Positions 1 to 58,100 of a stretch of 64,000 nucleotides of DNA are shown in pieces. How positions within the stretch are numbered: position 1 is the stretch's first letter; each line of letters opens with the position of its first letter. The DNA comes from a virus (taxonomy: Duplodnaviria; Heunggongvirae; Uroviricota; Caudoviricetes), in IMG/VR virus record IMGVR_UViG_3300017605_000626, positions 1 through 64,000 of that record; one strand, given 5' to 3'. The notes under the pieces are model-generated. The model ran no database searches and was not told the DNA's origin. It was given only the letters and a program-made list of their open reading frames with translations. Position numbers and translations under genes: made by a program.

Positions 1-402
1 AGTCTTGATTAATTCGCTTAACAGACCAAGCGATTTTTGGCGAGTGTCAACCTTTTCGTTAGCCGCACAAACAGCTAAAGCAAAAATCCAAGGATCTTGC
101 TTAAATGCTCTATCCTTTCTACGAACATCAGCAATTAATTCCAAAACTTTATCAGGATTTTCCTTTAAACATGCTTCAATATTTTGTGCATTTTCTTTGG
201 TTAATTTTGCTTCTGTAGTATAGTAAGATCCGCCTTCAGTGCCAAGGATTAGAAATCTTTCTAACCGCTTAAAATTATCTAATGCAAAAACAAAACAACC
301 TTCATTATTCTGCACTTGTGGCGCTGTAGACACTACAGCAGGAACAGGTTCTCTGACTGAAGTATTTTTGTAGTTGAATGACGTATATGCTTTGTGACTC
401 AT
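1..402 (-). CDS. Ro60/TROVE-domain protein (Rsr-like), N-terminal ~134 aa; the C-terminus runs off the window start
   Basis: Not in the ORF track because it has no stop inside the window. The minus frame from ATG (402..400, SD GGAGG 9 nt upstream) is open to position 1. Translation is MSHKAYTSFNYKNTSV..FKRLERFLILGTEGGSYYTTEAKLTKENAQNIEACL..DPWIFALAVCAANEK. This matches the Ro60 TROVE N-terminal signature (human Ro60 RLHRFLCFGSEGGTYY...LFALAIC). Confidence 0.6.
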   Translation of the reverse strand, partial: MSHKAYTSFNYKNTSVREPVPAVVSTAPQVQNNEGCFVFALDNFKRLERFLILGTEGGSYYTTEAKLTKENAQNIEACLKENPDKVLELIADVRRKDRAFKQDPWIFALAVCAANEKVDTRQKSLGLLSELIKT

Positions 403-511
403 TGAGGAAATGCCTCCATTTTATTTATTTTATTTTTTACTAACAACACCATAACTCTTTGACACTATAAGTCTTTGTTTAACAATGCTTTACACAAGGC
501 ATTTGCCTAGT

Positions 512-736: not shown

Positions 737-831
737 TTATTTTTCCTTTTAATTATCACTGAACAAGTGAGTATGCAGGAGTTTTATCTTTTATGGTTGA
801 TAATCCTACAAGTTCGGCTCAGTAATTCCTT

Positions 832-1593
832 TTAGTTTTTTACATACTGACTGAAATCAAGCACATCATTAAAGATTACCTGTGCTTCAGTCTTTGCGTT
901 ACTATTGATCACGTTCTGAATATTGTCTGGTCCACCGAACATACTAGTCATTCTCTCTACTTGTGGAGTTAGATTTTCCGCAAGCCTAGCCAGCTTGTAC
1001 ACTTGGCGAAGCAGCTTATCAGAGTCACACCAGAAGTTGGATAATACTCGGTATTCTACACCATAAGGCTTTGTACGAAAGCATCCAGCCTTACCATACA
1101 TCTTCTTTCTTTCAGTATCATGATCATTAAGCACAGACCACATACCAAGAGTTAAATCACAAGCTCTGATTGTTTCTGGTGTACCGCCTTCAATGTGCAA
1201 ATGACCTCCAAAGGTTCTTAGTGTAGTCCTTGCATCAGGCGGCTCATTCATATCCAACGTCCAAGCATTAAAGTCCGGCATACAGCCCATTTCCATAGCG
1301 CCTTTTACACTCTTTAAATCTTCTTTAATATAATGAGCACTAGGAACAGCCAGCAATCGACCTCTCCAATACTTCTTTCTTACTTCCTTAATCAATTGTA
1401 GAACATTGTCTACAAACTGATCTTCAGTTTCGGCAGGTGGAGGGGTAATTTCAATAGCCACACCATCCAATTCAACTCCGCCATGAGTCAATTGTTCAGC
1501 ATTTCCTTTAGTTCCAGTGATAGGTAAAATTCCAGCAGGCTTAAAAACTCCATCCATCTGCAACGCATATTCGATATCGTATCCGAGTTTCAC
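832..1593 (-). CDS. hypothetical protein (253 aa)
   Basis: Long ORF. Its ATGA start/stop overlaps the upstream gene at 1590-1593, typical of phage operon packing. Confidence 0.5.
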   Translation of the reverse strand: MKLGYDIEYALQMDGVFKPAGILPITGTKGNAEQLTHGGVELDGVAIEITPPPAETEDQFVDNVLQLIKEVRKKYWRGRLLAVPSAHYIKEDLKSVKGAMEMGCMPDFNAWTLDMNEPPDARTTLRTFGGHLHIEGGTPETIRACDLTLGMWSVLNDHDTERKKMYGKAGCFRTKPYGVEYRVLSNFWCDSDKLLRQVYKLARLAENLTPQVERMTSMFGGPDNIQNVINSNAKTEAQVIFNDVLDFSQYVKN

Positions 1594-2615
1594 CAGTTTC
1601 TCGCTCCTAATTGAGAATGAATATTATATAACCAATCTGTATCCATTGTGGCATAACCAGTGTATTTAGGTACATTGGCTAATTCAACTACTGTTTTTAC
1701 ATACTCATTAAATGAGCATTTATTACCATATTTAAATTGCAATAAGTATAAAACTGGAAATTCTAGTGGATGATACTTTGCTTTTTCCATCCTTTCTTTT
1801 ATTGTGTGCCCATAACTATAATAGTCACTAGGACTTAGATTTAACTGGCAATCTCCAATTAAAGATCCATAACCATAATAATATCCATGTTGTTCTTTTA
1901 GAGATTTTTGTTGTGGTTTTGGTCTCCACGTCCCTTCTTGTAATTCTCTAAAAGTCTTTATAGTTATGTTGTCATCATATATCGGGCCATGACTTATTGG
2001 GTAACGTGTTGTAGTAAGTCCAATAATATCTTTATTTCCACCTGGAGATCCTACCATTACACACGCCACAGCAGCTAAGGTTGGATGAATACCTTTAGCT
2101 GTTAATGCGTGGAATAATTCCATACAATGATTTTCTGTTCTTCCTTCTTGAATAATAGACATACATCTTAAAAATGTTAATACTACATCTGCTGGATAGA
2201 CTTCAATATCAATTTTATAGGTAAATTTCTTTCTGTTAAATAAAGGTTTAATCTGTAATAAGCTCATTAATGCATCGACAAAAGGTTTAAAAGCCTCTAC
2301 ATTTTTCTCTGCTACAGGATAATGTGCATATCCACCATAAATTTTGAGATATTTAGCTTTAGTAAATTCTTTTAAATATGATGATCTAAGCATAGCAAAA
2401 CAACCTTGATTTGGATAATTCTTTACTAATTTTTTGTCTGCGTCTAATAATTTGAATGATTCCATATAGAGAGTTGGTGGAGGCGGTGCGATTCGAACGC
2501 ACATTTCCTTTTGTATAGAAAGATAATCATTAACAAGCGGCTCATGGTATTGGGCATAGCATGAACAAAAGTAGTTAACGGATTTTTTTGTCCTACCGTT
2601 AGACGACGCCCCCAA
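1590..2615 (-). CDS. hypothetical protein (up to 341 aa; the true start may be internal)
   Basis: Long ORF in a co-directional array. No recognisable motif by eye. Confidence 0.5.
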   Translation of the reverse strand: MGASSNGRTKKSVNYFCSCYAQYHEPLVNDYLSIQKEMCVRIAPPPPTLYMESFKLLDADKKLVKNYPNQGCFAMLRSSYLKEFTKAKYLKIYGGYAHYPVAEKNVEAFKPFVDALMSLLQIKPLFNRKKFTYKIDIEVYPADVVLTFLRCMSIIQEGRTENHCMELFHALTAKGIHPTLAAVACVMVGSPGGNKDIIGLTTTRYPISHGPIYDDNITIKTFRELQEGTWRPKPQQKSLKEQHGYYYGYGSLIGDCQLNLSPSDYYSYGHTIKERMEKAKYHPLEFPVLYLLQFKYGNKCSFNEYVKTVVELANVPKYTGYATMDTDWLYNIHSQLGARNW

Positions 2616-2618
2616 AGT

Positions 2619-2981
2619 TTAAGTTACAAGTATGTGGTAAAAAGAAATCAAAAACGCCATATGAAGGAACTGATCAAAGCCTATTACTATAAAGAACTTA
2701 CGAATTTCTTTAGCTTCCCACAAATAATGAGTTACTTTACTACTGAAATAGTCCACAATGAAGTGGATACAACCATTTAAAGAACAATACAACCAAACAT
2801 TTTTAAATTGAGCAAGACTTAGAATAACAACTAATGTACTGAAATATACAAATACATGCCAGCTTAAAGCCCATAAACTTTTCCATTTGTTCATTGACAT
2901 ATATTCAGACTGCAATACAAAGTCCGCAATAAAATGCACTAATAAAACAAATGTCAAAAGAATAGAAAAATTTTCTTCCAT
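2619..2981 (-). CDS. integral membrane protein (approximately 4 TM)
   Basis: Hydrophobic segments LLTFVLLVHFIADFVL and VFVYFSTLVVILSLA. Confidence 0.45.
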   Translation of the reverse strand: MEENFSILLTFVLLVHFIADFVLQSEYMSMNKWKSLWALSWHVFVYFSTLVVILSLAQFKNVWLYCSLNGCIHFIVDYFSSKVTHYLWEAKEIRKFFIVIGFDQFLHMAFLISFYHILVT

Positions 2982-3231: not shown

Positions 3232-3334
3232 TAAATTACCTAATTAAAGTAGATATACATATACCAATATAAACAAGCAAAGCATAAGCCAATATTATTG
3301 CGGTTTTATTTATTATTTTTTCAATCATAAAATT

Positions 3335-3413
3335 TGGTAGCCCCTATAGGATTTGAACCTATGATCTATCGCTTAAAAGGCGAGTGCATTGAACCAGACT
3401 TTGCTAAGGGGCT
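3335..3413 (-). tRNA. tRNA-Lys (anticodon TTT), CCA encoded
   Basis: Minus-strand cloverleaf: acceptor AGCCCCT/AGGGGCT, T-arm ATAGG-TTCAAAT-CCTAT, anticodon loop CTTTTAA (U33, TTT, A37), discriminator A + CCA. Confidence 0.75.
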
Positions 3414-3708: not shown

Positions 3709-3785
3709 TGGAGGCCCCGGTCCGACTTGAACGGACGACCCCAAAATTAGAAGTTTTGTGCTCTATCCAACTGAGCTACGGGGCC
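3709..3785 (-). tRNA. tRNA-Arg (anticodon TCT), CCA encoded
   Basis: Acceptor GGCCCCG/CGGGGCC, D-arm GCTC..GAGC, anticodon stem CAAAA/TTTTG with loop CTTCTAA, T-arm GTCCG-TTCAAGT-CGGAC, discriminator T + CCA. Confidence 0.8.
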
Positions 3786-3790
3786 ATAAA

Positions 3791-5140
3791 TTAAGAGGAC
3801 ATTACATTAGACTGCATTTGATCTAACAACACTCTATGAAAATTTGCTTTATCTACTTTCTCCATAGTGTAAGAACTACAAAGATACCCCTCATTCCTAG
3901 TGTGTCCTATAGATTGATATCTTACTGGAATTCCTATATGCTGGCCGATCAAAGCGCATAGTTCATAACTAAATACAGTTACTATTTTACCATTAACTTT
4001 TACAGGAAAATTTCTATCACTAACCTGGTTTAAACAACTAACTGCAATATTGAATTTAAATCCTTCATCATCATTAATCGTTCTTACAAAACGTTTCACA
4101 GCATCTAAATGAATTAGGCGGCCTAAATTTAAATATTCTTTTATGTCAGTTAAGATAGCTTCTTTCATTAAATCTAAATCCAAAGCACCAAAACGTAGTG
4201 TGCCTTGAAATTCATTTGGTTGATTAGTTAAATCAAGGTAAGACATTTTAGGATCTTCAGTTGGAAATGGACCAGCACCATGACGTGTCATATAAGGTCT
4301 AGTCACATATGTGACAGTAACATTCATTTCCTTGTCTGATTTAATTCTTTGTAAATGAGCTTTCAAGTTTAAAATAGTTTCTTTTACATTGGTTAAACCA
4401 GTTTTACTGTGTGTTACATAGGGGAAAAATCTATGATCTTGGTCTAAAAGTAATCCCTGAGCACCTTCAAATACCAAGTTTTTATAGGTATTTAAATATG
4501 CTTCATCAGTTATTGTAGAACTGCTGTTCATTTGAACAGCCGTATTTACCCAGTTATACATGAGCGCCACTGATTCCCATTTTTCTTTAAACCAATTAGA
4601 TGGGTAATCTACTTTCGCTTCTTGAAGCCTATGACTTACATAGAAATCACGTATATTAGCTAATTTACCTTTAACTACTTGAAAGTTGTTAAGATCACTA
4701 GCATGTATAGTAGTTCTTGGGAATTTTTTGTGCCTTTGAACAGTTTCGTTAATTCCTACACCACAAGTAGTGCCTTTTTTTGACAACTCTGCATTGAGAA
4801 GCATATCATAAGGCGTAGTTACTATCGCATCTCTATGAATCTTTAGAATTATCTTTTTATCATATTTTTTTTCTAGTTCTTTAGCTTCTTTTTTCCAAAG
4901 AAACGGATTAAGAATAAATTCTTTACCGAGAAATGTATCTGCACCACAAAATGTACCGCTGCCAAAATGGTGGAACACATGCTTATTTCCAGCAGGAGTA
5001 GTTACAGTGTGACCAGCTTGTGCCCCGCCATTAAAGCGAATAACACAGACATTGTTCCTGCATTCATTAACGAAATATTCAGTCCAATACCCTTTACCGG
5101 AATCTCCAAAATTAGCATCTATTACAACGTAAATATTCAT
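3791..5140 (-). CDS. adenylosuccinate synthetase homolog (PurA/PurZ family), 449 aa
   Basis: N-terminal P-loop GDSGKGY (PurA GDEGKGK) and GGAQAGHT (PurA GGHNAGHT). Collinear similarity to E. coli PurA through the C-terminal FGALD region. Confidence 0.8.
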   Translation of the reverse strand: MNIYVVIDANFGDSGKGYWTEYFVNECRNNVCVIRFNGGAQAGHTVTTPAGNKHVFHHFGSGTFCGADTFLGKEFILNPFLWKKEAKELEKKYDKKIILKIHRDAIVTTPYDMLLNAELSKKGTTCGVGINETVQRHKKFPRTTIHASDLNNFQVVKGKLANIRDFYVSHRLQEAKVDYPSNWFKEKWESVALMYNWVNTAVQMNSSSTITDEAYLNTYKNLVFEGAQGLLLDQDHRFFPYVTHSKTGLTNVKETILNLKAHLQRIKSDKEMNVTVTYVTRPYMTRHGAGPFPTEDPKMSYLDLTNQPNEFQGTLRFGALDLDLMKEAILTDIKEYLNLGRLIHLDAVKRFVRTINDDEGFKFNIAVSCLNQVSDRNFPVKVNGKIVTVFSYELCALIGQHIGIPVRYQSIGHTRNEGYLCSSYTMEKVDKANFHRVLLDQMQSNVMSS

Positions 5141-5367
5141 TTGCGTCTCAATGTAATTAAAGGAAAATGAAACAGTTCAATTCCTTTTTTAGTAATCATA
5201 GAACAGGCTTTAATAATCAAAATATCTTTCAATGTATCAGGACGTGATAACCAATAAGACTGTATATTCAATTCAATACAAAGATTTTCTACATCTGCCT
5301 GTAAATCAGTAGCTACTACGAATTTATGTAAATCTTCGCCTTTAGGTTGCCAATTAACTTGTATCAT
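5137..5367 (-). CDS. hypothetical protein (76 aa)
   Basis: Track ORF with 4-nt overlaps to both neighbours. Confidence 0.4.
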   Translation of the reverse strand: MIQVNWQPKGEDLHKFVVATDLQADVENLCIELNIQSYWLSRPDTLKDILIIKACSMITKKGIELFHFPLITLRRK

Positions 5368-6140
5368 AGTTTTGTATAGCTAGATATCGCTTTTACCAAT
5401 TTAACAATGTCATGAGCATAGAAACCAGCAGAATTTAGTCCATTAAATTCTACTACATATGATTCACCATTATATAATGCAACGTCCATAACACAGCATT
5501 CATGAGGCAACCACATATCTGCTAAGGCTTGAGCCTCTTTTAACACAGCTTCATCAGTCTCTTCATATTGATATGGTTGATCGGATAGTCTGTAAGAACT
5601 GCCAGTTATAATTTTACCACCAACAATGAAATATCTCCATTCCATATCAATCTTTTTTGGAATAGATAAAGATATTTTAGTATCGCTGTTCATTTCACAT
5701 TCTACTGATTCAAGCCGCTCAACCCAAGAAATAAGATCTTTTCCAGTAATAACGTGTCCTGCAAAACTCTTTGTGTCGTCTAAAGGGCGAATAAACCAAT
5801 TAAATCTCAATCCTGCAAAATGCAAAGCATCATGTAAGGACACTATTAAAGCATCTTTGTTAAGCATAGCAGGATGCTTATAATTATACATATTTACAAA
5901 AAAATTGTCATTATGAAAGACGTATTTCCAATTAAGAGACTTTGCTAACTTGACTAAAGAAGTGGAGCCATGAGGAATAAAATCAGTGCCTTCAAGGTTA
6001 AGAGAAAGTTCATTCTCTTTAATCCAATTAAGAACACGATGCTGTTCTATCATAATAAAGAATTCTTCAGCTTCTTTTAAAGCAGCAAGCATTCTACCTG
6101 TTGTTCTATCTTTGCAGTTTTGAATTACCCATGTAGACAT
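5364..6140 (-). CDS. ATP-grasp-like domain protein (258 aa)
   Basis: C-terminal VALYNGESYVVEFNGLNSAGFY resembles the ATP-grasp (E-x-N) nucleotide-binding segment. Weak call. Confidence 0.4.
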   Translation of the reverse strand: MSTWVIQNCKDRTTGRMLAALKEAEEFFIMIEQHRVLNWIKENELSLNLEGTDFIPHGSTSLVKLAKSLNWKYVFHNDNFFVNMYNYKHPAMLNKDALIVSLHDALHFAGLRFNWFIRPLDDTKSFAGHVITGKDLISWVERLESVECEMNSDTKISLSIPKKIDMEWRYFIVGGKIITGSSYRLSDQPYQYEETDEAVLKEAQALADMWLPHECCVMDVALYNGESYVVEFNGLNSAGFYAHDIVKLVKAISSYTKL

Positions 6141-6222
6141 TGTTATACCTTAATTATTGAGCAAGTTTATGTTAATAGGGTTAATTTTCAATGTTAACCT
6201 ATTAACGTCGGCTCAATTCCCT

Positions 6223-6414
6223 TTACCAACTATGCCAAGAACAATAAACAATTTCCTTATGACAATTAGGGCAGTGATCAAAAGAAGTGTTAGTTAAAAT
6301 ATTACAATTATCACAAGTAATATAACATGTTCCATCCAAAGAATCACTGTCATAAGTTACTGTAGTTTGGTCTGGTTTTAAATCCTCTAATTTGTTTATA
6401 ATTTTTATTGTCAT
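6223..6414 (-). CDS. zinc-ribbon protein (63 aa)
   Basis: CDNCN...CPNCH. Confidence 0.4.
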   Translation of the reverse strand: MTIKIINKLEDLKPDQTTVTYDSDSLDGTCYITCDNCNILTNTSFDHCPNCHKEIVYCSWHSW

Positions 6415-7298
6415 CTGTCTAGGTAAACTCTTACAAAGTTTTTGCTGTTATCAATGACTAAAGAGCTTTTATCCTCATGAACAACCAGCCCCACTTCTTT
6501 ATAGCCAGCACTTCTTTCACAAGCAGCAATAGTATTAACAATACCTTGAGCTAGATAGCTCTCATCTCTCACCGAGATGGCGGCTTCACCTAACAATCTT
6601 TTCCAAGTCTTTTCTACTGGCTGGCTATTAACAGGTTTGATAATCAAATGAAAAACATTCCAATATTCTTGAGTAACAGCTAGAAGTTTTTCAGTATCAA
6701 TATCTTCTTGACATCCCACGCCCATAAAGCTTCTAATATGTTCGGCTTCAATGATAGGCAGAACACACTCATCACCAATGGTAAATAGATAACCTTTCTT
6801 GTTTCTCTTTCTCCAGGCGTCAGTCTTAACCTTGAAAGTAGCAAACCACCAAGGTAAAGAATAAGATTCTCCTCCATTACTACCACCATTTGCTTCCAAA
6901 TAAATAGAAGCAACCTGCTGCGTTATAGCGTCAACAGAAGCCTCAAACTGAGTTACCTGCAACGGCGCTCTATCAGAAAAAGCATCCCCAACTCCCATAC
7001 ACATAATGTGGGGATCTCTTACAGGCTTGGTATCATAAATTTCTTTCATGATAACGCCAAGATCATGCTTGATAATCTGCTCAGCAAGCCGACCCATAGA
7101 ACCTGTTTCATCTACAGCTAAGATAATAGGTGTAGATTCTGGATTAGCGTCTGAGTCTACTGATTCACGAAAATCAATCTTACTAGGATCTAAGGCAGGA
7201 TCAATTTCCCTTTTAGTAAAAATCTCTTTTCTAGATTTATTGCTAACTGTTTTAGTATAGCTTGTCCAATCATTTGCATCCCAACGTGCATTTCCCAT
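6411..7298 (-). CDS. von Willebrand factor A (vWA)-like domain protein
   Basis: ILAVDETGSMG, a MIDAS-like DxTGS motif. Confidence 0.5.
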   Translation of the reverse strand: MGNARWDANDWTSYTKTVSNKSRKEIFTKREIDPALDPSKIDFRESVDSDANPESTPIILAVDETGSMGRLAEQIIKHDLGVIMKEIYDTKPVRDPHIMCMGVGDAFSDRAPLQVTQFEASVDAITQQVASIYLEANGGSNGGESYSLPWWFATFKVKTDAWRKRNKKGYLFTIGDECVLPIIEAEHIRSFMGVGCQEDIDTEKLLAVTQEYWNVFHLIIKPVNSQPVEKTWKRLLGEAAISVRDESYLAQGIVNTIAACERSAGYKEVGLVVHEDKSSLVIDNSKNFVRVYLDR

Positions 7299-7341
7299 TT
7301 TATTTATTCCTTTATTATTTAATTTTTAATTAAAAAAAAGT

Positions 7342-7470
7342 GCCATTCTATTGGATTCGAACCAATGACCCACAGTTCCTGAGTTAACCTTTCTTCTTCG
7401 GCTACGACTACATAGCAAGTAGTTGAAAAAAGATATTTTGACTGTTGCTCTGCCTCTGAGCTAAGAACGG
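7342..7470 (-). ncRNA. tRNA-like gene with all canonical arms but an approximately 65-nt anticodon loop (approximately 58-nt insertion)
   Basis: Minus-strand acceptor CCGTTCT/AGAATGG (7 bp, 1 GU), D-arm GCTC-AGAGGCA-GAGC, perfect 5-bp anticodon stem ACAGT/ACTGT separated by 65 nt. The T-arm ATTGG-TTCGAAT-CCAAT is perfect. Discriminator C, followed by an 8-nt U-tract. Confidence 0.45.
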
Positions 7471-7915
7471 CATAAAATTGTTAGGCTAATGCTGGTGTTC
7501 CTTCATCAATACCATTTTGCAATACTTCTGTTGCTTTGTCAAGATCTTCTTGGGTTAACGGAGCTTCCTCTTCTTTCTTTTCAGGAACTTTTCCACCGTT
7601 ATCTTCCCAAATGTCTGTTGCTGGTCCGCCCATTTTAGTCCTTTATTGTAATCATGAAACTGCAATTAAAAACACTCCGACTGCAATAGTAGTCGATATT
7701 ACCCAAATAAATTTGTTTGATATTCCTGCTCCATAAAAATCTTTGTCTAAATGATTAATAAGGTTAAAACTAACCACACAAAATACAAAAGATAGCACTG
7801 AAACACCAAGAGCGAATGCCATTTTATCTCCAAAAAAAACCACTGAGCAAAGAAAGATTTAGCAGTTTTTATCTTAAAAGGATAATGCTTAATCAACGGC
7901 TCAGTGGTTTATAGG

Positions 7916-10195: not shown

Positions 10196-10504
10196 TCATC
10201 TTATTAAATAATGATTAAATAAATTAAATAGTAAACAATTTGGAATAAGCATTACCCAATATCTCCAACTAAATAGTTTAACATTAGAATCATCACTCAT
10301 AACTCCTACAAATAAAGAAAATACTACCAGCCATAACCAATAATTGATAAAAAATGCTATAAAAATACTGAAAGAACTAATCCACCATTTCCAACTAGGG
10401 AATGGAGAATAAAATCCAGATATGCTGGCACCCAGATAAAACCCAGTAATTAAAGCTATCCAATCAATCAAAGTCATGATAACACCTCTATAAAAAAAGG
10501 GCAA
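10196..10504 (-). CDS. integral membrane protein
   Basis: Multiple hydrophobic helices. Confidence 0.4.
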   Translation of the reverse strand: MPFFYRGVIMTLIDWIALITGFYLGASISGFYSPFPSWKWWISSFSIFIAFFINYWLWLVVFSLFVGVMSDDSNVKLFSWRYWVMLIPNCLLFNLFNHYLIR

Positions 10505-10536
10505 GTAATTTTTTACCTGCCCTTTAACTTGATTAT

Positions 10537-15170: not shown

Positions 15171-15343
15171 CGCAATTTCCTCATAACAAAGAAATTATGT
15201 GATCCACAATGCTAAGAACAAGTTTATTGAAATAGGCTAATTCAACAGTACTCAACGATTTTCTATGGTTAAGCTCCTGTATAATCAAGTCAATTGTATA
15301 AATCCTGTCTTTAATTAGCCCTATTCGATGCACTTGTTCAATC

Positions 15344-15982
15344 TTACTCGTTGTTTGCCGAGTACTTAGATTTATATTCTTCATCTTTTTCAATTGTTTT
15401 CTTAAAAAACATATTTGCAGCGGTATGGTAAATGATAATTCCTTCTGCGGGTTTAAAACCAGGAGAAGCTTTGCTTCCATTGACACTTAAATCTTCTAAG
15501 GTTCCCCAAATAGCGTTTTCATTAAAAATACCTCTATATAGAACAGGTACTACATGGCAACATTTTGGAGCATTTTCAGGCGTCCATCTTGTAGTATTAA
15601 ACAAAGAAAATCTCTTTTCACCTAATCCGTATCCTCTTTGAATACCTCTGCCCCACCATTCACCAAAGTGAGTTCCAGGACCAAGTTTAGCAAGCTCTTC
15701 AGATTCTGCACGAACCCAATTAGCAAAACCTGCATTGTCATTTTTAGGAGTAATCCATTTATTTCTGGAAGCAGCTATAATTGCCAACCCATCCTTCACG
15801 CAAGTAGCCGTCGTTTCAACAAAATGTTCAGATATTAAAGGGTCAATAGAAAAGGCATTTACATAGTTAATTGTGATAGACGCATTAGTTCCGTCTATTT
15901 TTTCAGATATGACAATTTCTCTACTTAATCTTGGTATTTTAGGAAACGGCTGAAAATCCATATTATCCTCATTGTAATCCAA
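15344..15982 (-). CDS. RNA ligase (Rnl2-like nucleotidyltransferase domain)
   Basis: Motif I EKIDGTN (T4 Rnl2 EKIHGTN), the lysine-adenylation KxDG motif. Confidence 0.55.
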   Translation of the reverse strand: MDYNEDNMDFQPFPKIPRLSREIVISEKIDGTNASITINYVNAFSIDPLISEHFVETTATCVKDGLAIIAASRNKWITPKNDNAGFANWVRAESEELAKLGPGTHFGEWWGRGIQRGYGLGEKRFSLFNTTRWTPENAPKCCHVVPVLYRGIFNENAIWGTLEDLSVNGSKASPGFKPAEGIIIYHTAANMFFKKTIEKDEEYKSKYSANNE

Positions 15983-16548: not shown

Positions 16549-16734
16549 TTACTTGTTAATACAATTGGATTGCACATCAGGGAAAAGAAGGTTAAACAAA
16601 CTGTTCAAACACTTCATACAAAGGGTAATTTTTACGGTGGGATTATCTTTATTAGAGAAAATAGCAAGCTCTTTACGAACATCTTGATTATTGTCACATT
16701 GGAAACAATCGTCTGTAGAAGGTTTAAGAATCAT
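16549..16734 (-). CDS. small Cys-rich protein (61 aa)
   Basis: CFQCDN...CMKC. ATGA-coupled to the upstream gene. Confidence 0.3.
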   Translation of the reverse strand: MILKPSTDDCFQCDNNQDVRKELAIFSNKDNPTVKITLCMKCLNSLFNLLFPDVQSNCINK

Positions 16735-17330
16735 TCTGGTATCTCCAAAGCAAAGATTTCATCAGCTACTCCACCAGCACAAGCCAACATTTGCTGGATA
16801 TATCCTCTTGAATAAAGAGAATAGGCATTAGAATACCAAACGCCTTTTGACCAATGACCACCAGATTCATTTGCTACGGTAATGTCACCAGTGTTATCAA
16901 TAAAGGCGAGTTTATTCCAACCCCCAACCAATTGCTCAAGCAAATCAAGTTTTTCCTTGTAATCAGGAAGGAAATATTTTTTCAAGATTTTTTCGGTAAA
17001 GGTCCAGGTATCTGACTTACCTTCTGGAATTCCTTTAATGTCAATAACTCCGTTATGAAATACCACCACATCTTTAGACATTTCAAACGGATGGCACATT
17101 TCTAGGCCAATAGTGCCATGTGTGCCCGCCCTAAAGTGCGCGACATATGGACGGCCATTAATCTGGTTAAAAAGCGGTCTTATATCGGCATAATACATTG
17201 TTTTATATACTTCTAGCTTTCCATTATTAGCAAAAGCAATGCCAAAACCGTGTGGGTTATGATGATAAGCATTTTCAATCTTATTTTCTGGCATTAACTT
17301 CCCTTCTCTACTACAAAGCAACAAACACAT
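16731..17330 (-). CDS. class-II glutamine amidotransferase-like (Ntn, YafJ-type) protein
   Basis: N-terminal MC(LLLC) putative nucleophile Cys2, HGFGIAF segment. Confidence 0.4.
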   Translation of the reverse strand: MCLLLCSREGKLMPENKIENAYHHNPHGFGIAFANNGKLEVYKTMYYADIRPLFNQINGRPYVAHFRAGTHGTIGLEMCHPFEMSKDVVVFHNGVIDIKGIPEGKSDTWTFTEKILKKYFLPDYKEKLDLLEQLVGGWNKLAFIDNTGDITVANESGGHWSKGVWYSNAYSLYSRGYIQQMLACAGGVADEIFALEIPE

Positions 17331-20725: not shown

Positions 20726-21379
20726 CTATGCGTTGGTTAAAAAATTACGGAGATAAACCAAATTATGCTGACTGTTATTTGGATCTTTCTCAGTAATTTG
20801 TAGATTAGTAAGCAGTTTATCTAGAGAAACATTGAACTCGCCTTGAACTGCCCTAATCTCAAACTCCTCTACTACATGGAGACAACGTGCAATCCATCTG
20901 GGGTGGAGACACATGTTAAAGAGCCTAAACTCCACCGTTTTATGCTCTGTTGGAAAGGATATGCAATCATGATGCAATCCAGTTCCTTTAATCCGCTCAT
21001 TTGCAGCCCCATCATTAAACCAAGTACCACTACCGCGACGATATACATTTGGGCGGAAAGACAATTTCTTTTCTTTGTAGAAATTCATAACTTTGCCGCA
21101 ATCAAGCAATAAAAGAGAGTAATTGCCTGAGTTATGGATATGCATTCCACAGGTTTTATTACCTTTAGCGCCGATCATCTTGAGAAAAGCCGCCATCTCA
21201 AACACTTGGGCTTTTTGATCCCAATTAAGAACAGGACTGACAACTTCCACACCAAATGGTTCAATTGTCGGATCTATCTTATCCACCCAACCAGGAAACC
21301 AATCCTTTAAGGCTCTTACTTGGTTCTTATAGGTAGAACCCCTTATACCAGCAACCTCAAACTCAATTCCAAATGGCAT
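20726..21379 (-). CDS. putative amidoligase-family (COOH-NH2 ligase) enzyme
   Basis: GMHIHNSG, a G-x-H-x-H segment characteristic of the phage-associated 'putative amidoligase' family. Weak call. Confidence 0.35.
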   Translation of the reverse strand: MPFGIEFEVAGIRGSTYKNQVRALKDWFPGWVDKIDPTIEPFGVEVVSPVLNWDQKAQVFEMAAFLKMIGAKGNKTCGMHIHNSGNYSLLLLDCGKVMNFYKEKKLSFRPNVYRRGSGTWFNDGAANERIKGTGLHHDCISFPTEHKTVEFRLFNMCLHPRWIARCLHVVEEFEIRAVQGEFNVSLDKLLTNLQITEKDPNNSQHNLVYLRNFLTNA

Positions 21380-33603: not shown

Positions 33604-34135
33604 AGTACCATTTAGCCAGCTTCTTACCAGACTTACTTATTCTATATTCAGGCTCTACTATTTTGGTCGGCTTTAGTAATGGAAGTCCTTTAAGCCATAA
33701 GCAAGTTTTTTTCGGCTCACTATGTCCAAACTGAAACGGCTGTATAATCTGGTCAGGCTTTCTCCAACGAGTACTCATAATCCCAACGGGGTTCTCTATA
33801 CATATTCTAGGTATATTAGCATTAGCCAGAGACATAAAAAACTCAACCGCCTTTTCTCTATCTTGTTCTCTATTAGGAAATCTATCTTTATATTCAGGTT
33901 TAAACCATTTATTTCCAGTAATAGTAAGATAAGTACATGGTGGATGGGCTATCATCAAGTCCCATCTAGGTCGTCCACCACTAATTTCCCAATGTAGTAT
34001 TTCTAAAACATCTCCTTTTATGTGTTGTCCTTGCATTTCTGTTTGTTCTAAATCACAGGATACAGCATTATGCCCTTTAGCTGTAAAAGCTTCTCTTACT
34101 ATACCAGAAAATTCACAGGCAATCAATATGTTCAT
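33515..34135 (-). CDS. putative short DNA (cytosine-5)-methyltransferase-like protein
   Basis: CEFSGIV (motif I-like F-x-G-x-G), HPPCTYLT (PC motif IV-like), ICIENPVG (ENV motif VI-like). Only 206 aa, so no TRD. Tentative. Confidence 0.4.
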   Translation of the reverse strand: MNILIACEFSGIVREAFTAKGHNAVSCDLEQTEMQGQHIKGDVLEILHWEISGGRPRWDLMIAHPPCTYLTITGNKWFKPEYKDRFPNREQDREKAVEFFMSLANANIPRICIENPVGIMSTRWRKPDQIIQPFQFGHSEPKKTCLWLKGLPLLKPTKIVEPEYRISKSGKKLAKWYYEPSPSPERQKIRNRTFQGIADAFADQWG

Positions 34136-41825: not shown

Positions 41826-42096
41826 AAACGTCCATTAATATGCTAGGATCTAGTATACTAAATCTTTCCTTCAAAAACAAGCAAATTTCTTGTTTATCTA
41901 AAGAAAGTTGATAGCTATCTTCATTAAGTTTAAATGACTCTATATTCTCTGCAACTTCAACAGAATCATCTGACTCATAAAGTATAAAAGAAAAATTATC
42001 AAGGGAAGGGAAGTAATCAAATACTTCCCTTGTAATCTCCTCAAAATACTGTTCAGCAGCCTCTTTTACCTGTTCTTTCAAGAAATCTGAATTCAT
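41761..42096 (-). CDS. hypothetical acidic protein (111 aa)
   Basis: Track ORF. Confidence 0.4.
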   Translation of the reverse strand: MNSDFLKEQVKEAAEQYFEEITREVFDYFPSLDNFSFILYESDDSVEVAENIESFKLNEDSYQLSLDKQEICLFLKERFSILDPSILMDVFGKNVKVFVSREEEPQLFYIV

Positions 42097-42920
42097 TACT
42101 TTTTCTTTCCAAATATATCTTTTAACTTGTATTTCTTACCTGACTCTATCTTCTTGTACTTTTTTGGAGTTGGCACAAATCTTAAAACTTCATCTATACC
42201 AATTTTTACATCTTTCTTTAGAGGTTCAAATTCTGGAATATCTTTTGTAGACTCTAAATTGTTTGCATCAAATCCAGATAAGAAAGTAGATGTACTACCA
42301 ATGTTAGAATTAGCGCCACTAGCATAAGACAATGTTCTCTGTCTAGTGTTCTTATTCACCACCACGCCGCCTCTACCACTATAATTACTTATAGTATTAC
42401 CGTGTGCAATGCCAATACCTTGAGCAGTAGTCCAAGCACTTTGATCAGCACCTAAATAAGTAAAGGTCCAATTACCAAGCTTCTGCTTTTCATCAATTAT
42501 AGTGCGGATTGCCTGCTGAGTATATTCAGTTGAAGCATTCTCCCTACCATCGGTCATGACCATAGCCAATACTTTGTAATCACCGAGTTTCTTAGTTTTA
42601 ATCGCATCTTCAAAAGCCTTTACCGTTATTCCAATAGAATCATACAAAGCAGTCCATCCATTAGGGCTATAATTTTCCTTTGTAAGTTCTGGAATCTCTG
42701 CAATAGGGACTAAGTTATGTAGTACGCTGGCCTTAGTATTAAACTTAGCAAATGACATGTAAATATTCTTAGCCAACTTGCTCTCTTTAATGCCCCGCAC
42801 ATACTCATTAAATCCAGAAATAGTCTCATCAATATTCTGAGCCATTGATCCAGACTCATCAATAATATACAGAACTACAGTTTTTACATCTTTTACTGCT
42901 TTCTTAATTGTCTTTCTCAT
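42096..42920 (-). CDS. vWA-domain protein
   Basis: VVLYIIDESGSMAQ MIDAS motif (DxSGS), downstream T and D. Confidence 0.6.
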   Translation of the reverse strand: MRKTIKKAVKDVKTVVLYIIDESGSMAQNIDETISGFNEYVRGIKESKLAKNIYMSFAKFNTKASVLHNLVPIAEIPELTKENYSPNGWTALYDSIGITVKAFEDAIKTKKLGDYKVLAMVMTDGRENASTEYTQQAIRTIIDEKQKLGNWTFTYLGADQSAWTTAQGIGIAHGNTISNYSGRGGVVVNKNTRQRTLSYASGANSNIGSTSTFLSGFDANNLESTKDIPEFEPLKKDVKIGIDEVLRFVPTPKKYKKIESGKKYKLKDIFGKKK

Positions 42921-55108: not shown

Positions 55109-58100
55109 ATGGTTAGAGGAACTATTGATATTCCACAACCTACTTCAGCAACATCTAATACGTTGTCGGTTGAAACCGCATCTAGAATATCTGCGGATAT
55201 TACTTTGTCTAATGCCATTAGTGTACTGTCTTCTTTAGTTAGTGCTAATTATTCTGCTTATCTTTCTCTTGTTGATAGAGTTTCTGCTAATAGTGCAGGC
55301 TCTGGAAGTGTAACTTCAACTGAACTTTCTGCTGTTAGTGCGGCTGCCAATACTCACATAAATACAGTTTCTTCTCAAGTAGAAACAAATTCAGCACAAA
55401 TGACTAGTGCTGATTTAGCATTGAGCAACGCAGTTAGTGCATTAAGTGCTCAATTGAGTATACAAGTTTCTGCTTTGTCACAAGTTCACAGTGTTCTTAG
55501 TGCTAATGTGGCCAGTATAAGCACAAATGTTTCTGCAATTAGTACTAGGTTATCAGCCTTATCTTCTCAAGTTTCTAGTAATTCAGCGCAAATGACTTCG
55601 GCTGATGATGCTATTTCAAATGCTTTATCAGTTGAAACAGCTAATCGAGTTTCTGCTGTTAATAGGGTGTCTCAAGCTTTATCGGCATTAGTTCTTGATT
55701 CTATAAAAGATGTTTCAGCTCCTTCCCCCTCAGATCAACAAGTTTTGGCGTGGGATTCAGCCGCTGCTAATTGGCATCCAATGTCAGTGGTAGCAGGGTC
55801 TGGTTCTGTTACTTCTAATGAATTATCAGCAGTTAGTGTAGCTGCACAATCAGCTATAGATACAGTTTCTGTTGCTCTTGCTACCCTTAGTTTAAATGTT
55901 TCTGCTATAAGCTCAAGACTGTCGGCTTTATCGGCTCAGGTTTCGTCTAATTCTGCACAGATGACCAGCGCCGACAATGCAATTTCTAATGCTGTGTCTG
56001 TCGAAACAGCAGCTCGTATTACAGCAGACAATCTGTTATCGAATGCAGTTTCAGCCTTGTCCGTTCAGCTTAGTTTACAGGTTTCAGCACTAAGCCAAGT
56101 GCATTCTGCTTTATCGGCCAATGTTGCTAGTCTCAGTTTAGACGTTTCCGCCATTAGCACACGGCTTTCAGCATTGTCAGCACAAGTCAGCACGAATAGT
56201 GCTCAAATGACCTCTGCCGATAATGCGATATCTAATGCGGTATCAGTACTTTCTGTGCAATTATCCCTTCAAGTTTCTGCATTATCTCAGGTACACAGTG
56301 CTTTATCTGCAAACGTTGCTACTCTATCATTGAATCAGTCGGCGATGAGTACGGCAATTTCAGCTTTGTCTGTTCAGTTGAGTTTGCAAGTTTCGGCTTT
56401 GAGTCAAGTAGTTTCAGCTTTATCTGCAAATGTAGCAGGAATTTCTACTAACGTTTCTGCAATTAGTACAAGATTGTCAGCACTGTCATCACAGGTCAGT
56501 TCTAATTCAGCTCAAATGACCTCTGCCGACAATGCTATTAGTAATGCAGTATCTGTACTTTCTACTCAGTTGTCTTTGCAAGTATCGGCACTTTCTCAAG
56601 TTCACAGCGCCTTGAGTGCAAACGTTGCTACAATTTCTTTGAATGCTTCGGCAATGAGTACAGCAATTTCTGTTTTAAGTAATCAAACTTCAGTTCTTAG
56701 ATTTGCTGGAAAACTCGTTACGCTTCAGAATGTAGATGGATCAGCAGTTTCTGCCGGTGCTCCAGTTTACGCATTTACTTCAGCTAATACATTTAAACGT
56801 GCTGATGCAGATGCTGCATCGCCTGCACCAAATGTATTAGGATTAGTTTACGACGCTAATATTGCAGTATCAGCACTTGGTAATGTTCAAGTAAATGGTG
56901 TTGTAACTTTGACTACGGCGCAGTGGGATAGTATTACAGGTGGTGCTAGTGGATTAACAATAGGCTCTACATACTATGCCGGAACAACGGTAGGAACACT
57001 TACTACTACTGCTGGCCAAGGTAGTGGTCGTCCTGTTGGTATTGCTTTGTCTACAACAGAAATGTTGTTGGTTATTGGTCAAATTGATGACTGGACTTCT
57101 GTTGTATCTTCTATTAGTTCACGTCTTTCTGCATTGTCGTCTCAAGTTTCTAGTAATTCAGCGCAAATGACTTCTGCTGATAATGCCATTAGCAATGCAG
57201 TGAGTGTATTAAGTACACAATTGAGTTTGCAAGTTTCGGCTTTGAGTCAAGTGCATTCGGCTCTATCAGCTAATGTGGCAACTTTGTCGTTAAATCAGTC
57301 GGCGATGAGTACGGCAATTTCAGCTTTATCAGTACAATTGTCATTACAGGTTTCTGCTTTAAGTCAGGTTCATTCTGCATTGTCTGCTAATGTGGCGACA
57401 ATAAGTTTGAATGTCTCTGCTCTTTCTACTTTAGTTTCCGCACTTTCTGTGCAACTGTCTTTGCAGGTCTCGGCACTTTCTCAAGTTCATAGTGCTTTGT
57501 CGGCAAATGTAGCTACAATTTCATTAAACGTTTCGGCAATATCTACTGCTGTTTCAAATGCTAATTCTGCTATAGTAGCCAACTCCGCACAGATGACCTC
57601 TGCCGACAATGCTATTAGTAATGCAGTATCAGTTGAAACGGCTAATAGAATTTCAGCGGTAAATAGAGTGTCTAATGCTTTATCGGCATTAGTCCTAGAT
57701 TCTATTGCAAACGTTTCTGCACCATCTCCGGGGGATCAACAAGTTTTGGCGTGGGATTCGGCTGCGGGTAATTGGCATCCTATGTCAGTCGCTGCTGGAT
57801 CTGGGTCTGTTACATCAAATGAATTGTCTACTGTTGCATCAGCCGTATCTGCTAACTCGGCTCAAATGACTTCGGCGGACAATGCGATTAGTAACGCAGT
57901 TAGTGTTCTGAGCGTTCAGTTGAGTCTGCAAGTTTCGGCTTTAAGCCAAGTTCATTCAGCATTGTCGGCCAACGTAGCGGCCATAAGTTTGAATGTTTCT
58001 GCTCTGTCTACCTTAGTCTCAGCGTTGTCTGTACAACTTAGTTTACAAGTTTCAGCATTATCTCAAGTTCATAGTGCTCTTAGCGCCAATGTTGCGGGAA

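What the first reader, a model, noticed from the sequence alone, without database searches (positions are those of the whole stretch)
1..402. Phage-encoded Ro60/TROVE ortholog, not in the ORF track because it runs off the window
The hand-translated N-terminus carries the Ro60 signature RFLILGTEGGSYY...IFALAVC. Ro60 RNPs pair with Y RNAs and participate in RNA quality control and RtcB-linked repair. In phages this may counter host tRNA/rRNA-cleaving defences. The remainder of the gene and any adjacent Y RNA lie left of this window.
Basis: partly seen in the sequence, partly recalled or inferred. Interest (0 to 1): 0.5.

Follow-up and report, generated by a model that had tools for sequence, protein, structure and literature searches.

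The report
Phage Ro60 gene with five Y RNAs
The window's left edge holds the start of a phage gene for Ro60, a ring-shaped RNA-binding protein, and just upstream lie five small RNA genes of the kind Ro60 binds, two of which are built like tRNAs in a layout I could not find described.

Summary
Window 402→1 (minus strand) is an ATG-started ORF with a GGAGG ribosome-binding site that runs off the window. Its 134 residues are the N-terminus of a Ro60/TROVE protein (Pfam TROVE above cutoff; Xenopus Ro60 E 4e-18). Its closest full-length relatives are about 530 aa and carry TROVE plus the Ro60 vWA domain. The window is an uncultured tailed phage.

Phage Ro60 is already known: 355 GenBank phage records, 332 IMG/VR contigs, and the solved Thermus phage phiLo protein.

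That is wrong for at least five. Y-RNA-like genes lie inside the window, on the Ro60 strand, in intergenic gaps 0.35–7.5 kb upstream.
- Three are hairpins: 758-823, 6156-6217, 7842-7905.
- Two are tRNA-shaped RNAs in which the Ro-binding bulged helix replaces the anticodon arm: 2475-2613 and 7340-7471.

Rfam misses all five. Covariance models built only from Ro-adjacent RNAs of other phages find exactly these (E 1e-6 to 2e-16).

The tRNA-ordered form has an open acceptor stem, once with an encoded CCA. It is the un-permuted counterpart of bacterial YrlA. I found no description of it in the literature I could search.

No rtcB is present; an RNA ligase gene is. The C-terminus cannot be checked.

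The parts
1..402 (-). 5' part of the Ro60/TROVE gene: codons 1-134, ATG at 402-400. The remainder lies beyond base 1.
   Evidence: Translation. Pfam TROVE 33.6 bits. PDB Ro60 E 3.8e-18. 2190 homologous clusters, mostly ~530 aa, matched at their N-termini.
413..417 (-). Shine-Dalgarno GGAGG, 10 nt upstream of the ATG.
   Evidence: Read directly from the sequence.
758..823 (-). Y RNA A, hairpin type: ACUGAGC-C-GA ... GGAUUAUC ... GAUAA ... CUUGUUCAGU. The stem extends to about 755-826. It fills the gap between ORF 832-1593 and ORF 512-736.
   Evidence: Model R1, built without window sequence: 50.5 bits, E 3e-9. Fold -21.5 kcal/mol, z -5.3.
2475..2613 (-). Y RNA B, tRNA-ordered. It has a 7-bp acceptor stem with G3.U70, A73 and an encoded CCA, plus D and T arms. 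The anticodon arm is replaced by a long arm that ends in the helix UUGUUCAUG/CAUGAGC-C-G closed by a loop. UUAUC lies at the junction.
   Evidence: Model R2: 66.8 bits, E 3e-15. Fold. Sequence.
6156..6217 (-). Y RNA C, hairpin type: AUUGAGC-C-GA ... GGUUAAC ... CUUGCUCAAU. It fills the gap between ORF 6223-6414 and ORF 5364-6140.
   Evidence: R1: 39.4 bits, E 1e-6. Fold z -2.7.
7340..7471 (-). Y RNA D, tRNA-ordered. Acceptor GCCGUUC/GAAUGGC, canonical D and T loops, and a long arm ending in UUGCUA/UAGC-C-GA. GGUUAAC lies at the junction. U8 follows at 7332-7339.
   Evidence: R2: 71.2 bits, E 2e-16, all helices aligned. ARAGORN -i calls c[7340,7471] with a 57-nt insert.
7832..7905 (-). Y RNA E, hairpin type (7842-7905): ACUGAGC-C-G ... 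GCAUUAUC ... GAUAA ... UUUGCUCAGU. U8 follows at 7832-7839, giving a terminator-like end. The next gene's ATG is at 7822.
   Evidence: R1: 42.1 bits, E 2.5e-7. Fold -26.1 kcal/mol, z -4.9. Sequence.

Best explanation
The window's left edge carries the start of a phage Ro60 gene. Ro60 is a ring of HEAT repeats closed by a vWA domain. The 8 kb upstream, on the same strand, carries five genes for its likely RNA partners.

Each RNA presents the Y-RNA hallmark: a helix with a bulged C (5' RAGC-C-GA paired with 3' UUGYUY). Most also have the nearby UUAUC/UUAAC motif. In three RNAs (A, C, E) this helix closes a simple hairpin, like YrlB or nematode sbRNA. In two (B, D) it sits at the tip of an extended arm that replaces the anticodon arm of an otherwise complete tRNA cloverleaf.

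Proposed mechanism:
1. Ro60 binds the bulged helix on its outer surface (inferred).
2. The second module of each RNA gates the ring and tethers it to a partner: the hairpin loop, or the tRNA body with its free acceptor end (inferred).
3. The partner is most likely the host 3'-5' exoribonuclease PNPase or other tRNA-binding enzymes. This rests on analogy with Deinococcus and Salmonella RYPER complexes and with Thermus phage phiLo.
4. The RNPs would then degrade or handle structured or damaged RNA during infection and help the phage withstand RNA-directed host defences (inferred).

Shown here: gene identity, RNA family membership, conserved structure, and linkage to Ro60 genes. Not shown: binding, the partner, and the benefit to the phage.
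For: Protein:
- TROVE and Ro60 matches.
- Ten of ten closest full-length relatives have TROVE + vWA_Ro60.

RNAs, tested with models that contain no window sequence:
- R1 was built from 24 hairpins next to Ro60 genes in 10 other phage contigs. Over all 64 kb, both strands, filters off, it gives three significant hits (50.5, 42.1 and 39.4 bits). The next best is 14 bits.
- R2 was built from 24 tRNA-ordered RNAs. It gives 71.2 and 66.8 bits for D and B. The window's three true tRNAs score 45, 32 and 29 bits with the Y arm deleted.
- ARAGORN with introns allowed independently calls B and D.
- All five RNAs sit in intergenic gaps on the Ro60 strand.

Association with Ro60:
- In 82 Ro60 loci, 92 of 92 R1 hits (E<=1e-3) and 47 of 47 R2 hits (E<=1e-9) are on the Ro60 strand. 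Most lie within 2 kb upstream or just downstream of the gene.

Structure:
- 42 non-seed hairpins: 91.6% of cells paired, against 38-48% for slid controls; 15 of 16 pairs have compensatory changes.
- 35 tRNA-ordered RNAs: 92.1% against 36-50%. The pair next to the bulged C alternates G-C (16) and A-U (11).

Link to known Y RNAs:
- The best R1 hit, L074 5702-5775, reaches the Rfam gathering score of the nematode sbRNA family RF01656.
- A bacterial locus, L003, has sub-threshold YrlA hits upstream of its TROVE gene and rtcB downstream.

Literature:
- Y RNAs lie near Ro60 in >250 bacteria and phages (PMC4201824).
- phiLo Ro60 binds two upstream Y-like RNAs and host PNPase (PMC12135203).
- Bas63 gp130, a Ro60-like protein, counters the ppl defence (PMC11482910).
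Against: - Only 134 of an expected ~530 residues are visible. The TROVE ring, the vWA domain and the stop codon are unseen. TROVE genes split into two ORFs exist in L001 and L003.
- No Rfam family (Y_RNA, YrlA, sbRNA) reports any of the five RNAs, and the tRNA model does not report B or D. This holds at E<=10 even in a 651-nt search covering D and E.
- The seeds for R1 were picked with a regular expression that required the bulged-helix pairing. Covariation in that helix among the seeds is therefore partly built in.
- A4 and A5 were aligned to the models, which favours pairing.
- C and D have UUAAC rather than UUAUC.
- The RNAs are scattered among protein genes over 7.5 kb, whereas most loci have a tight cluster.
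- There is no expression or binding data, and the PNPase step rests on analogy only.
Confidence: 0.8

Rival explanations
1. Mechanism rival: the Ro60-Y RNPs are a scaffold for RNA repair rather than an exonuclease tether. They would hold nuclease-cleaved tRNAs or rRNA so that the phage RNA ligase can reseal them, as proposed for rsr-rtcB operons.
For: An RNA ligase gene (PF09414, phrog_548) lies at 15344-15982 on the same strand. Phage tRNA-Lys(UUU), tRNA-Arg(UCU) and tRNA-Leu(UAA) are interleaved with the Y RNAs. L001 has RNA ligase and an AAA_33 kinase near its Ro60 gene, and L003 has rtcB. PMC7824862 describes ROT/TROVE as a platform for RNA repair with a tRNA-like partner.
Against: No RtcB, RtcA or polynucleotide kinase was detected in the window. 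The ligase ORF covers only two thirds of its profile and may be split. It lies about 15 kb from the Ro60 gene. No experiment shows that Ro60 presents substrates to a ligase.
Confidence: 0.25
2. Mechanism rival: the tRNA-ordered RNAs B and D act mainly as tRNA mimics. They could be decoys or sponges for tRNA-targeting host nucleases or tRNA-binding enzymes, or chargeable RNAs that reach the translation machinery. Ro60 would serve only to stabilise them.
For: B and D have complete acceptor, D and T arms with canonical loops. B has an encoded CCA, as all three true tRNAs of this phage do, and shares the 3' trailer CCAACUCU with tRNA-Arg. B also has G3.U70 and A73, which are the AlaRS identity elements (established knowledge; tmRNA uses them too).
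Against: G.U at the third acceptor pair occurs in only 3 of 35 family members. An encoded CCA occurs in 3 of the 33 members that could be checked. There is no anticodon loop for nucleases that read it. The conserved part of the family is the Ro-binding helix.
Confidence: 0.15
3. The fragment is a truncated or decaying Ro60 remnant, and the RNAs are relics without function.
For: Only the N-terminus is visible. Split TROVE ORFs occur in L001 and L003. Many database hits are short.
Against: The fragment has an intact start, an RBS, and all 17 invariant residues of the 17-sequence alignment. Five RNAs retain the motif and compensatory pairing. The short database hits mostly come from short contigs.
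Confidence: 0.06
4. The five RNA elements are unrelated to Ro60. A, C and E would be ordinary terminators or repeats, and B and D would be tRNA genes with insertions or introns.
For: E and D are followed by U8 runs. A, C and E sit at gene ends. ARAGORN labels B and D as intron-containing tRNAs. Rfam finds no Y RNA.
Against: Models trained only on Ro-adjacent RNAs of other phages pick exactly these five in 128 kb of sequence searched. The sequence-specific motif, bulged C included, is not needed for termination. The 52-57-nt inserts are too short for group I introns, and they carry the conserved Y helix. In other loci the hits are 100% on the Ro60 strand.
Confidence: 0.04

Closest known systems
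Thermus phage phiLo Ro60 (phiRo60) with Yrl1 and Yrl2 (PMC12135203; PDB 9KOP, 9L5Y)
   Same: A phage-encoded Ro60 with Y-RNA-like genes just upstream on the same strand. The RNAs have a stem-bulge-stem with a CGAA motif. The proposed role is hijacking host PNPase to escape defence.
   Different: phiLo has two hairpin-type RNAs; this window has five, two of them tRNA-ordered. No sequence match to phiRo60 appeared in the PDB search with the 134-aa fragment. The host and GC content differ. The window's TerL is only 28-35% identical to those of Thermus phages.
Bacterial Rsr with YrlA/YrlB (Salmonella, M. smegmatis) and mycobacteriophage YrlA (PMC4201824; bioRxiv 10.1101/312249)
   Same: A Ro60 ortholog with at least two Y RNAs encoded nearby, one hairpin-like (YrlB) and one with a tRNA-like domain of T arm, D arm and acceptor stem. 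The GNCGAA motif lies on the 5' strand of the binding helix.
   Different: YrlA is a circularly permuted tRNA. Its ends lie in the Ro-binding stem, its acceptor stem is closed by a loop, and it has no free CCA. B and D are in true tRNA order: the acceptor is open (B has CCA) and the Ro-binding helix is closed by a loop. [quoted passage not shown] Rfam RF02553 does not match. No rtcBA genes are present.
Deinococcus radiodurans Rsr-Yrn1-PNPase (RYPER)
   Same: It provides the working model: the Y RNA tethers the Ro60 ring to an exoribonuclease and gates the cavity. Both strands of the Ro helix are conserved.
   Different: In Yrn1 the Y stem takes the place of the acceptor stem. Here it takes the place of the anticodon arm. 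A PNPase interaction is untested here.
Metazoan Y RNAs and nematode stem-bulge RNAs (Rfam RF00019, RF01656)
   Same: A terminal helix with a bulged C (GGUC-C-GA/UUGACC; here GAGC-C-GA/UUGYUC), a UUAUC motif, 60-110 nt in length, and in E and D a terminal U run. One member of the phage hairpin family reaches the RF01656 gathering score.
   Different: The window copies do not reach any Rfam threshold. They have no large pyrimidine-rich internal loop. They are bacterial-virus genes ended by intrinsic-terminator-like structures.
Escherichia phage Bas63 gp130 (PMC11482910)
   Same: A Ro60-like phage protein encoded next to a tRNA array. It is needed against the ppl defence. The authors guess that some annotated tRNAs are Y RNAs.
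   Different: There the tRNA-as-Y-RNA idea is a conjecture. Here specific tRNA-shaped RNAs carrying the Ro helix are identified. Sequence relatedness to gp130 was not tested.

Membership tests
Ro60 / TROVE protein (Pfam PF05731 + PF25045) | N-terminal TROVE sequence signature | tested here: met
   Pfam 33.6 bits against a cutoff of 23. Ro60 structures match at E 3.8e-18, 1.2e-14 and 7.8e-11. All 17 invariant alignment columns are kept.
Ro60 / TROVE protein (Pfam PF05731 + PF25045) | Complete HEAT-repeat ring (~350 aa) followed by a vWA domain with a MIDAS site | not testable with these tools
   The gene runs off base 1, and the source contig was not found in any collection. Ten of ten closest full-length relatives have TROVE + vWA_Ro60.
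Ro60 / TROVE protein (Pfam PF05731 + PF25045) | Y-RNA partner genes encoded nearby | tested here: met
   Five elements lie within 7.5 kb upstream on the same strand.
Y RNA (metazoan Y, sbRNA, YrlB-like hairpins) | A helix with a bulged C of the form xxxC-C-GA / UUGxxx | tested here: met
   Present in A, C and E at the base of the hairpin and in B and D at the tip of the long arm. Across phage relatives this helix is 97% paired in A5 and 91% in A4, with compensatory changes.
Y RNA (metazoan Y, sbRNA, YrlB-like hairpins) | UUAUC motif next to the upper stem | tested here: inconclusive
   UUAUC is present in A, B and E. C and D have UUAAC. UUAUC is invariant in the 24 seed hairpins, but that was a selection criterion.
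Y RNA (metazoan Y, sbRNA, YrlB-like hairpins) | Score at or above an Rfam Y-RNA family threshold | tested here: not met
   No Y_RNA, sbRNA or YrlA hit at E<=10. A relative of the same model family, L074, does reach the RF01656 gathering score.
Y RNA (metazoan Y, sbRNA, YrlB-like hairpins) | Bound by Ro60 in vivo or in vitro | not testable with these tools
   Needs RIP or EMSA.
YrlA (Rfam RF02553) | A tRNA-like domain with T arm, D arm and acceptor stem joined to a Ro-binding stem | tested here: met
   B and D: ARAGORN -i, R2 alignments, folds.
YrlA (Rfam RF02553) | Permuted order: the 5'/3' ends lie in the Ro-binding stem, the acceptor stem is closed by a loop, and there is no free CCA | tested here: not met
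   B and D run acceptor-D-(Y arm)-T-acceptor. The acceptor ends are open, B has an encoded CCA, and the Ro helix is closed by a loop. YrlA is defined as permuted in bioRxiv 10.1101/312249.
tRNA | Cloverleaf with a 7-bp acceptor stem and D and T arms with canonical loops | tested here: met
   U8, the GG of the D loop and the UUCGAAU T loop are read from the sequence.
tRNA | A 5-bp anticodon stem with a 7-nt loop that presents an anticodon | tested here: not met
   Replaced by 52- and 57-nt arms. The Rfam tRNA model does not report D in a 651-nt search, nor B or D at E<=10 in the 12-kb search.
rsr-yrlBA-rtcBA RNA repair operon | rtcB and rtcA adjacent to rsr | tested here: not met
   No RtcB or RtcA among ~55 window ORFs scanned, including every ORF of 300 aa or more. 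The left flank is not testable.

The most novel reading that the evidence does not exclude
The tRNA-ordered Y RNAs are an undescribed class of functional tRNA-Y RNA chimeras. B and D belong to it, along with at least 45 relatives in about 30 uncultured phage contigs. They would be processed like tRNAs by RNase P, 3' trimming and the CCA-adding enzyme, and would carry Ro60 on the arm where the anticodon should be. At least some would be aminoacylated: B has G3.U70, A73 and an encoded CCA, the alanine identity set that tmRNA also uses. This would couple a Ro60 ring to aminoacyl-tRNA synthetases, EF-Tu or ribosomes, or let the RNA pose as tRNA bait for host anticodon nucleases. They would also represent the un-permuted ancestor-like form from which YrlA arose.
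Probability: 0.15. Interest if true: 0.8.

Novelty: new variant of a known kind. Interest (0 to 1): 0.5.

Why it matters
Taken alone, the protein is one more phage Ro60: a new, divergent member (at most ~50% identity to anything in the databases searched) of a known kind.

The added value is the RNA side.
- It shows that curated RNA models (Rfam) miss the Y RNAs of many phages.
- It gives two working covariance models and about 140 candidate RNAs tightly linked to phage Ro60 genes.
- It identifies a tRNA-ordered Y RNA with an open acceptor end.

What the tRNA-like module of bacterial Y RNAs is for, and whether it can ever be CCA-tailed or charged, has been an open question since 2014 (PMC4201824). 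A natural form that already has tRNA topology and an encoded CCA makes that question directly testable.

There is also a practical warning for annotation: some over-long 'tRNAs' in phage genomes are Y RNAs.

Ro60 has been reported as a counter-defence factor in one phage (PMC11482910), so these RNAs are candidate cofactors of an anti-defence RNP.

Tried and rejected
Extending the gene leftward failed by every route:
- No megablast match in GenBank phages.
- No exact 40-mer in IMG/VR.
- No close relative in viral, metagenome or genome contigs.
- Three complete window proteins are not on record in the assembly index.

Rfam gave only three tRNAs at gathering thresholds. It gave no Y_RNA, YrlA or sbRNA hit at E<=10 over the whole window or in a 651-nt sub-search.

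A literal search for the vertebrate motif GGUCCGA or GGGCCGA found nothing relevant. The lead came instead from folding the 95-nt gap 737-831 and comparing it with repeated modules upstream of TROVE in L001.

Intergenic 403-511 (z -0.7) and 3232-3334 (z +1.1) show no structure. I dropped them.

Weak R1 hits at 33696-33721 and 10496-10525 (14 bits, E~0.6) were treated as chance.

L001 was considered as a syntenic relative. Apart from the TROVE gene it shares only one other protein family with the window. L031 shares the vWA-like and PurA-like genes upstream of Ro60 but has only a weak Y-like hit.

The search for homologous proteins returned only short fragments, so architecture was taken from the exhaustive search instead.

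The MAFFT alignments put the second stem in the wrong register. I used model-guided realignments for pair counts, with the bias that brings.

Four cultured actinophages (Myrna, Sixama, Pumpernickel, Karimac) have no strong tRNA-ordered Y RNA. Karimac has an unannotated hairpin-type one.

The literature searches and the papers I could read found no description of tRNA-ordered Y RNAs. The two Wolin-lab reviews could not be read.

Full report
**1. The observation**

The minus strand of window 1-402 reads from ATG (402-400) through 134 codons without a stop and leaves the window at base 1. GGAGG lies at 417-413, 10 nt upstream. Both quoted strings are present: RFLILGTEGGSYY at residues 49-61 and IFALAVC at 106-112. 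The mechanical ORF list omits the ORF because it runs off the end.

**2. What the protein is**

- Pfam TROVE scores 33.6 bits against a cutoff of 23 (E 3.3e-8), matching profile positions 1-81 of 442.
- PHROG 850 'RNA-binding protein' matches at 2.9e-9.
- Among solved structures the only real hits are Ro60 proteins: Xenopus 3.8e-18, human 1.2e-14, Deinococcus Rsr 7.8e-11.
- An exhaustive search of 1.8 billion representatives finds 2190 clusters. Most of the best are 520-580 aa and align through their first ~130 residues, at no more than about 50% identity.
- Ten of ten of these relatives carry TROVE plus the Ro60-type vWA domain.
- The fragment keeps all 17 invariant columns of a 17-sequence alignment.

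So it is the N-terminus of a Ro60-type protein. The ring and the vWA domain are inferred, not seen.

**3. The setting is a phage**

The window encodes a large terminase, a family-A DNA polymerase with exonuclease, a dUTPase, a spanin-like protein, three tRNAs and many small unknown genes. GC content is about 35%. It has no close relative: no megablast hit among 50,697 phage records, and the best TerL match is 40% identical.

**4. Phage Ro60 is not new**

- 355 GenBank phage records have a match, mostly annotated 'Ro-like RNA binding protein'.
- 332 IMG/VR contigs encode relatives.
- Y RNAs next to Ro60 were reported in bacteria and phages in 2014 (PMC4201824).
- The Thermus phage phiLo protein has been solved with two upstream Y-like RNAs and binds host PNPase (PMC12135203).
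- Bas63 gp130 counters the ppl defence (PMC11482910).

**5. Y RNAs are inside the window**

Rfam sees only three tRNAs. Folding the 95-nt gap 737-831 gave a stable hairpin (z -3.8; z -5.3 for 740-828). Its ends read CUGAGC-C-GA ... CUUGUUCAG, and it contains an internal GGAUUAUC.

The same design repeats about ten times upstream of the TROVE gene in the phage-like contig L001: GGGC-C-GA ... GGUUAUC ... CUUGCCC. It is the design of metazoan Y RNA and nematode sbRNA (GGUC-C-GA ... UUAUC ... UUGACC). The Rfam sbRNA model weakly matches such modules in L001 and L003.

A motif search then found two more hairpins in the window and two copies of the 5'-strand motif next to tRNA T-arm-like sequence. 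The pattern GAGCCG-N35-60-TTGYTCA occurs three times against 0.07 expected, all on the minus strand. That pattern was derived from these copies, so the count is descriptive only.

**6. Independent test of the hairpins**

I fetched 80 phage Ro60 loci and collected 24 hairpins from 10 of them. From these I built model R1 with no window sequence.

- Over the whole window, both strands, filters off, R1 gives 758-823 (50.5 bits, 3e-9), 7842-7905 (42.1 bits, 2.5e-7) and 6156-6217 (39.4 bits, 1e-6). The next hit scores 14 bits.
- Across 82 loci, all 92 hits at E<=1e-3 are on the Ro60 strand. They cluster within ~2 kb upstream or just downstream of the gene, and many are in loci that gave no seed.
- In a model-guided alignment of 42 non-seed hits, 91.6% of cells pair against 38-48% when partners are slid. 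Fifteen of 16 pairs show compensatory changes.
- The top hit, in L074, reaches the curated threshold of Rfam's sbRNA family.

**7. The tRNA-ordered form**

It calls similar ones next to Ro60 in many loci.

Their order is acceptor 5' strand, D arm, a long arm, a small variable hairpin, T arm, acceptor 3' strand. The long arm carries the Y helix at its tip, closed by a loop: UUGYUY-loop-RAGC-C-GA. The UUAUC/UUAAC motif lies where the arm rejoins the core.

Model R2 was built from 24 non-window examples.
- It scores D at 71.2 bits (2e-16) and B at 66.8 bits (3e-15).
- The three true tRNAs score 45, 32 and 29 bits with the arm deleted.
- R2 finds 47 hits at E<=1e-9 in about 30 of 80 loci, all on the Ro60 strand.
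- In 35 aligned members, 92% of cells pair against 36-50% slid. The pair beside the bulged C alternates G-C (16) and A-U (11).

Published YrlA is described as a circularly permuted tRNA with a closed acceptor stem and no free CCA (bioRxiv 10.1101/312249). B and D are the un-permuted arrangement. I found no description of this form in the searchable literature; two reviews could not be read.

B has an encoded CCA, as do all three true tRNAs of this phage. It shares the trailer CCAACUCU with tRNA-Arg. It also has G3.U70 and A73, but that G.U is present in only 3 of 35 relatives. D ends in A-C-U8. Four cultured actinophages lack a strong tRNA-ordered copy.

**8. Context and mechanism**

All five RNAs fill intergenic gaps on the Ro60 strand. 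They are interleaved with tRNA-Lys(UUU), tRNA-Arg(UCU), a PurA/PurZ-like gene, amidoligase-type genes, DUF3307 and a vWA-like gene.

There is no RtcB. An RNA ligase gene lies at 15344-15982.

The most likely working model combines the Deinococcus/Salmonella RYPER model with the phiLo data. Ro60 binds the bulged helix. The other module of each RNA gates the ring and tethers it to a host enzyme, with PNPase the prime candidate. This would alter the handling of structured or damaged RNA during infection. Binding, partner and benefit are all inferred. Repair-scaffold and tRNA-decoy readings remain open.

**9. Verdict**

Its placement of the Y RNAs is wrong, and its rtcB expectation is not met in the window. 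The protein is a new member of a known kind. The RNA complement, especially the tRNA-ordered Y RNAs, is a new variant of a known kind and the part worth following.

Noticed in passing
window 3791-5140 (-), with tRNA-Arg 3709-3785 and tRNA-Lys 3335-3413: An adenylosuccinate-synthetase homolog (Pfam PF00709; PHROG 1211, labelled 2-aminooxy adenylosuccinate synthetase, i.e. PurZ-like) sits between the Y RNAs. A homolog, together with a homolog of the vWA-like gene 6411-7298, also lies just upstream of Ro60 in L031. tblastn hits 202 Mycobacterium phage records, against 212 that have Ro60. This may be co-occurrence. Whether this phage makes 2-aminoadenine DNA was not examined.
   Followed up: partly
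window 832-1593, 5364-6140, 16731-17330, 20726-21379 (all -): A set of amidoligase-type genes: phiEco32-like COOH-NH2 ligase, R2K ATP-grasp, a GATase_4-like protein and Amidoligase_2. This suggests a peptide or metabolite ligation system.
   Followed up: no
window 2619-2981 (-); L001 16468-16800; L087 1531-1923: A DUF3307 membrane protein is encoded next to Y RNA B. The same domain recurs near Ro60 in the L001 contig and in Streptomyces phage Karimac.
   Followed up: no
window 15181-15982 (-): The RNA ligase ORF 15344-15982 (212 aa) covers only positions 7-219 of a 341-position PHROG profile. A 101-aa ORF (15181-15486) overlaps it in another frame. The gene may be frameshifted or split.
   Followed up: no
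L001 10001-11603; L003 10001-11595: In two unrelated loci the TROVE gene is called as two ORFs: 193+349 aa overlapping by 29 nt, and 227+298 aa. These could be assembly errors, pseudogenes or frameshifting.
   Followed up: no
L001 8490-9990 and 11617-11740: A phage-like contig of at least 123 kb has about ten Y-like modules in a 1.5-kb gene-free stretch upstream of Ro60. Four are embedded in tRNA-shaped RNAs. Another odd tRNA-like element lies right after the gene, beside a tRNA array and a tmRNA gene.
   Followed up: partly
L080 5642-5767, L061 5711-5839, L083 3507-3629: Some tRNA-ordered Y RNAs exceed the Rfam tRNA gathering score at 123-129 nt. Standard pipelines may therefore annotate them as over-long tRNAs.
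   Followed up: partly
window 55109-60043 (+) and 60063-62777 (+): A 1644-aa ORF has no family match and carries internal 117-nt repeats (58729-59077, 3 copies, 78% matches). It is followed by a 904-aa protein with an MptE-like domain and two methyltransferase domains. GC content rises to 0.43 in this stretch.
   Followed up: no
window 42096-42920 (-): A 274-aa protein (PHROG 7371, unknown function) is homologous to the genes that flank the Ro60/Y RNA cluster on both sides in L001. Homologs also occur in L029 and L042 (L042 is the IMG/VR copy of the same contig as L002). In this window it lies 42 kb from Ro60.
   Followed up: no
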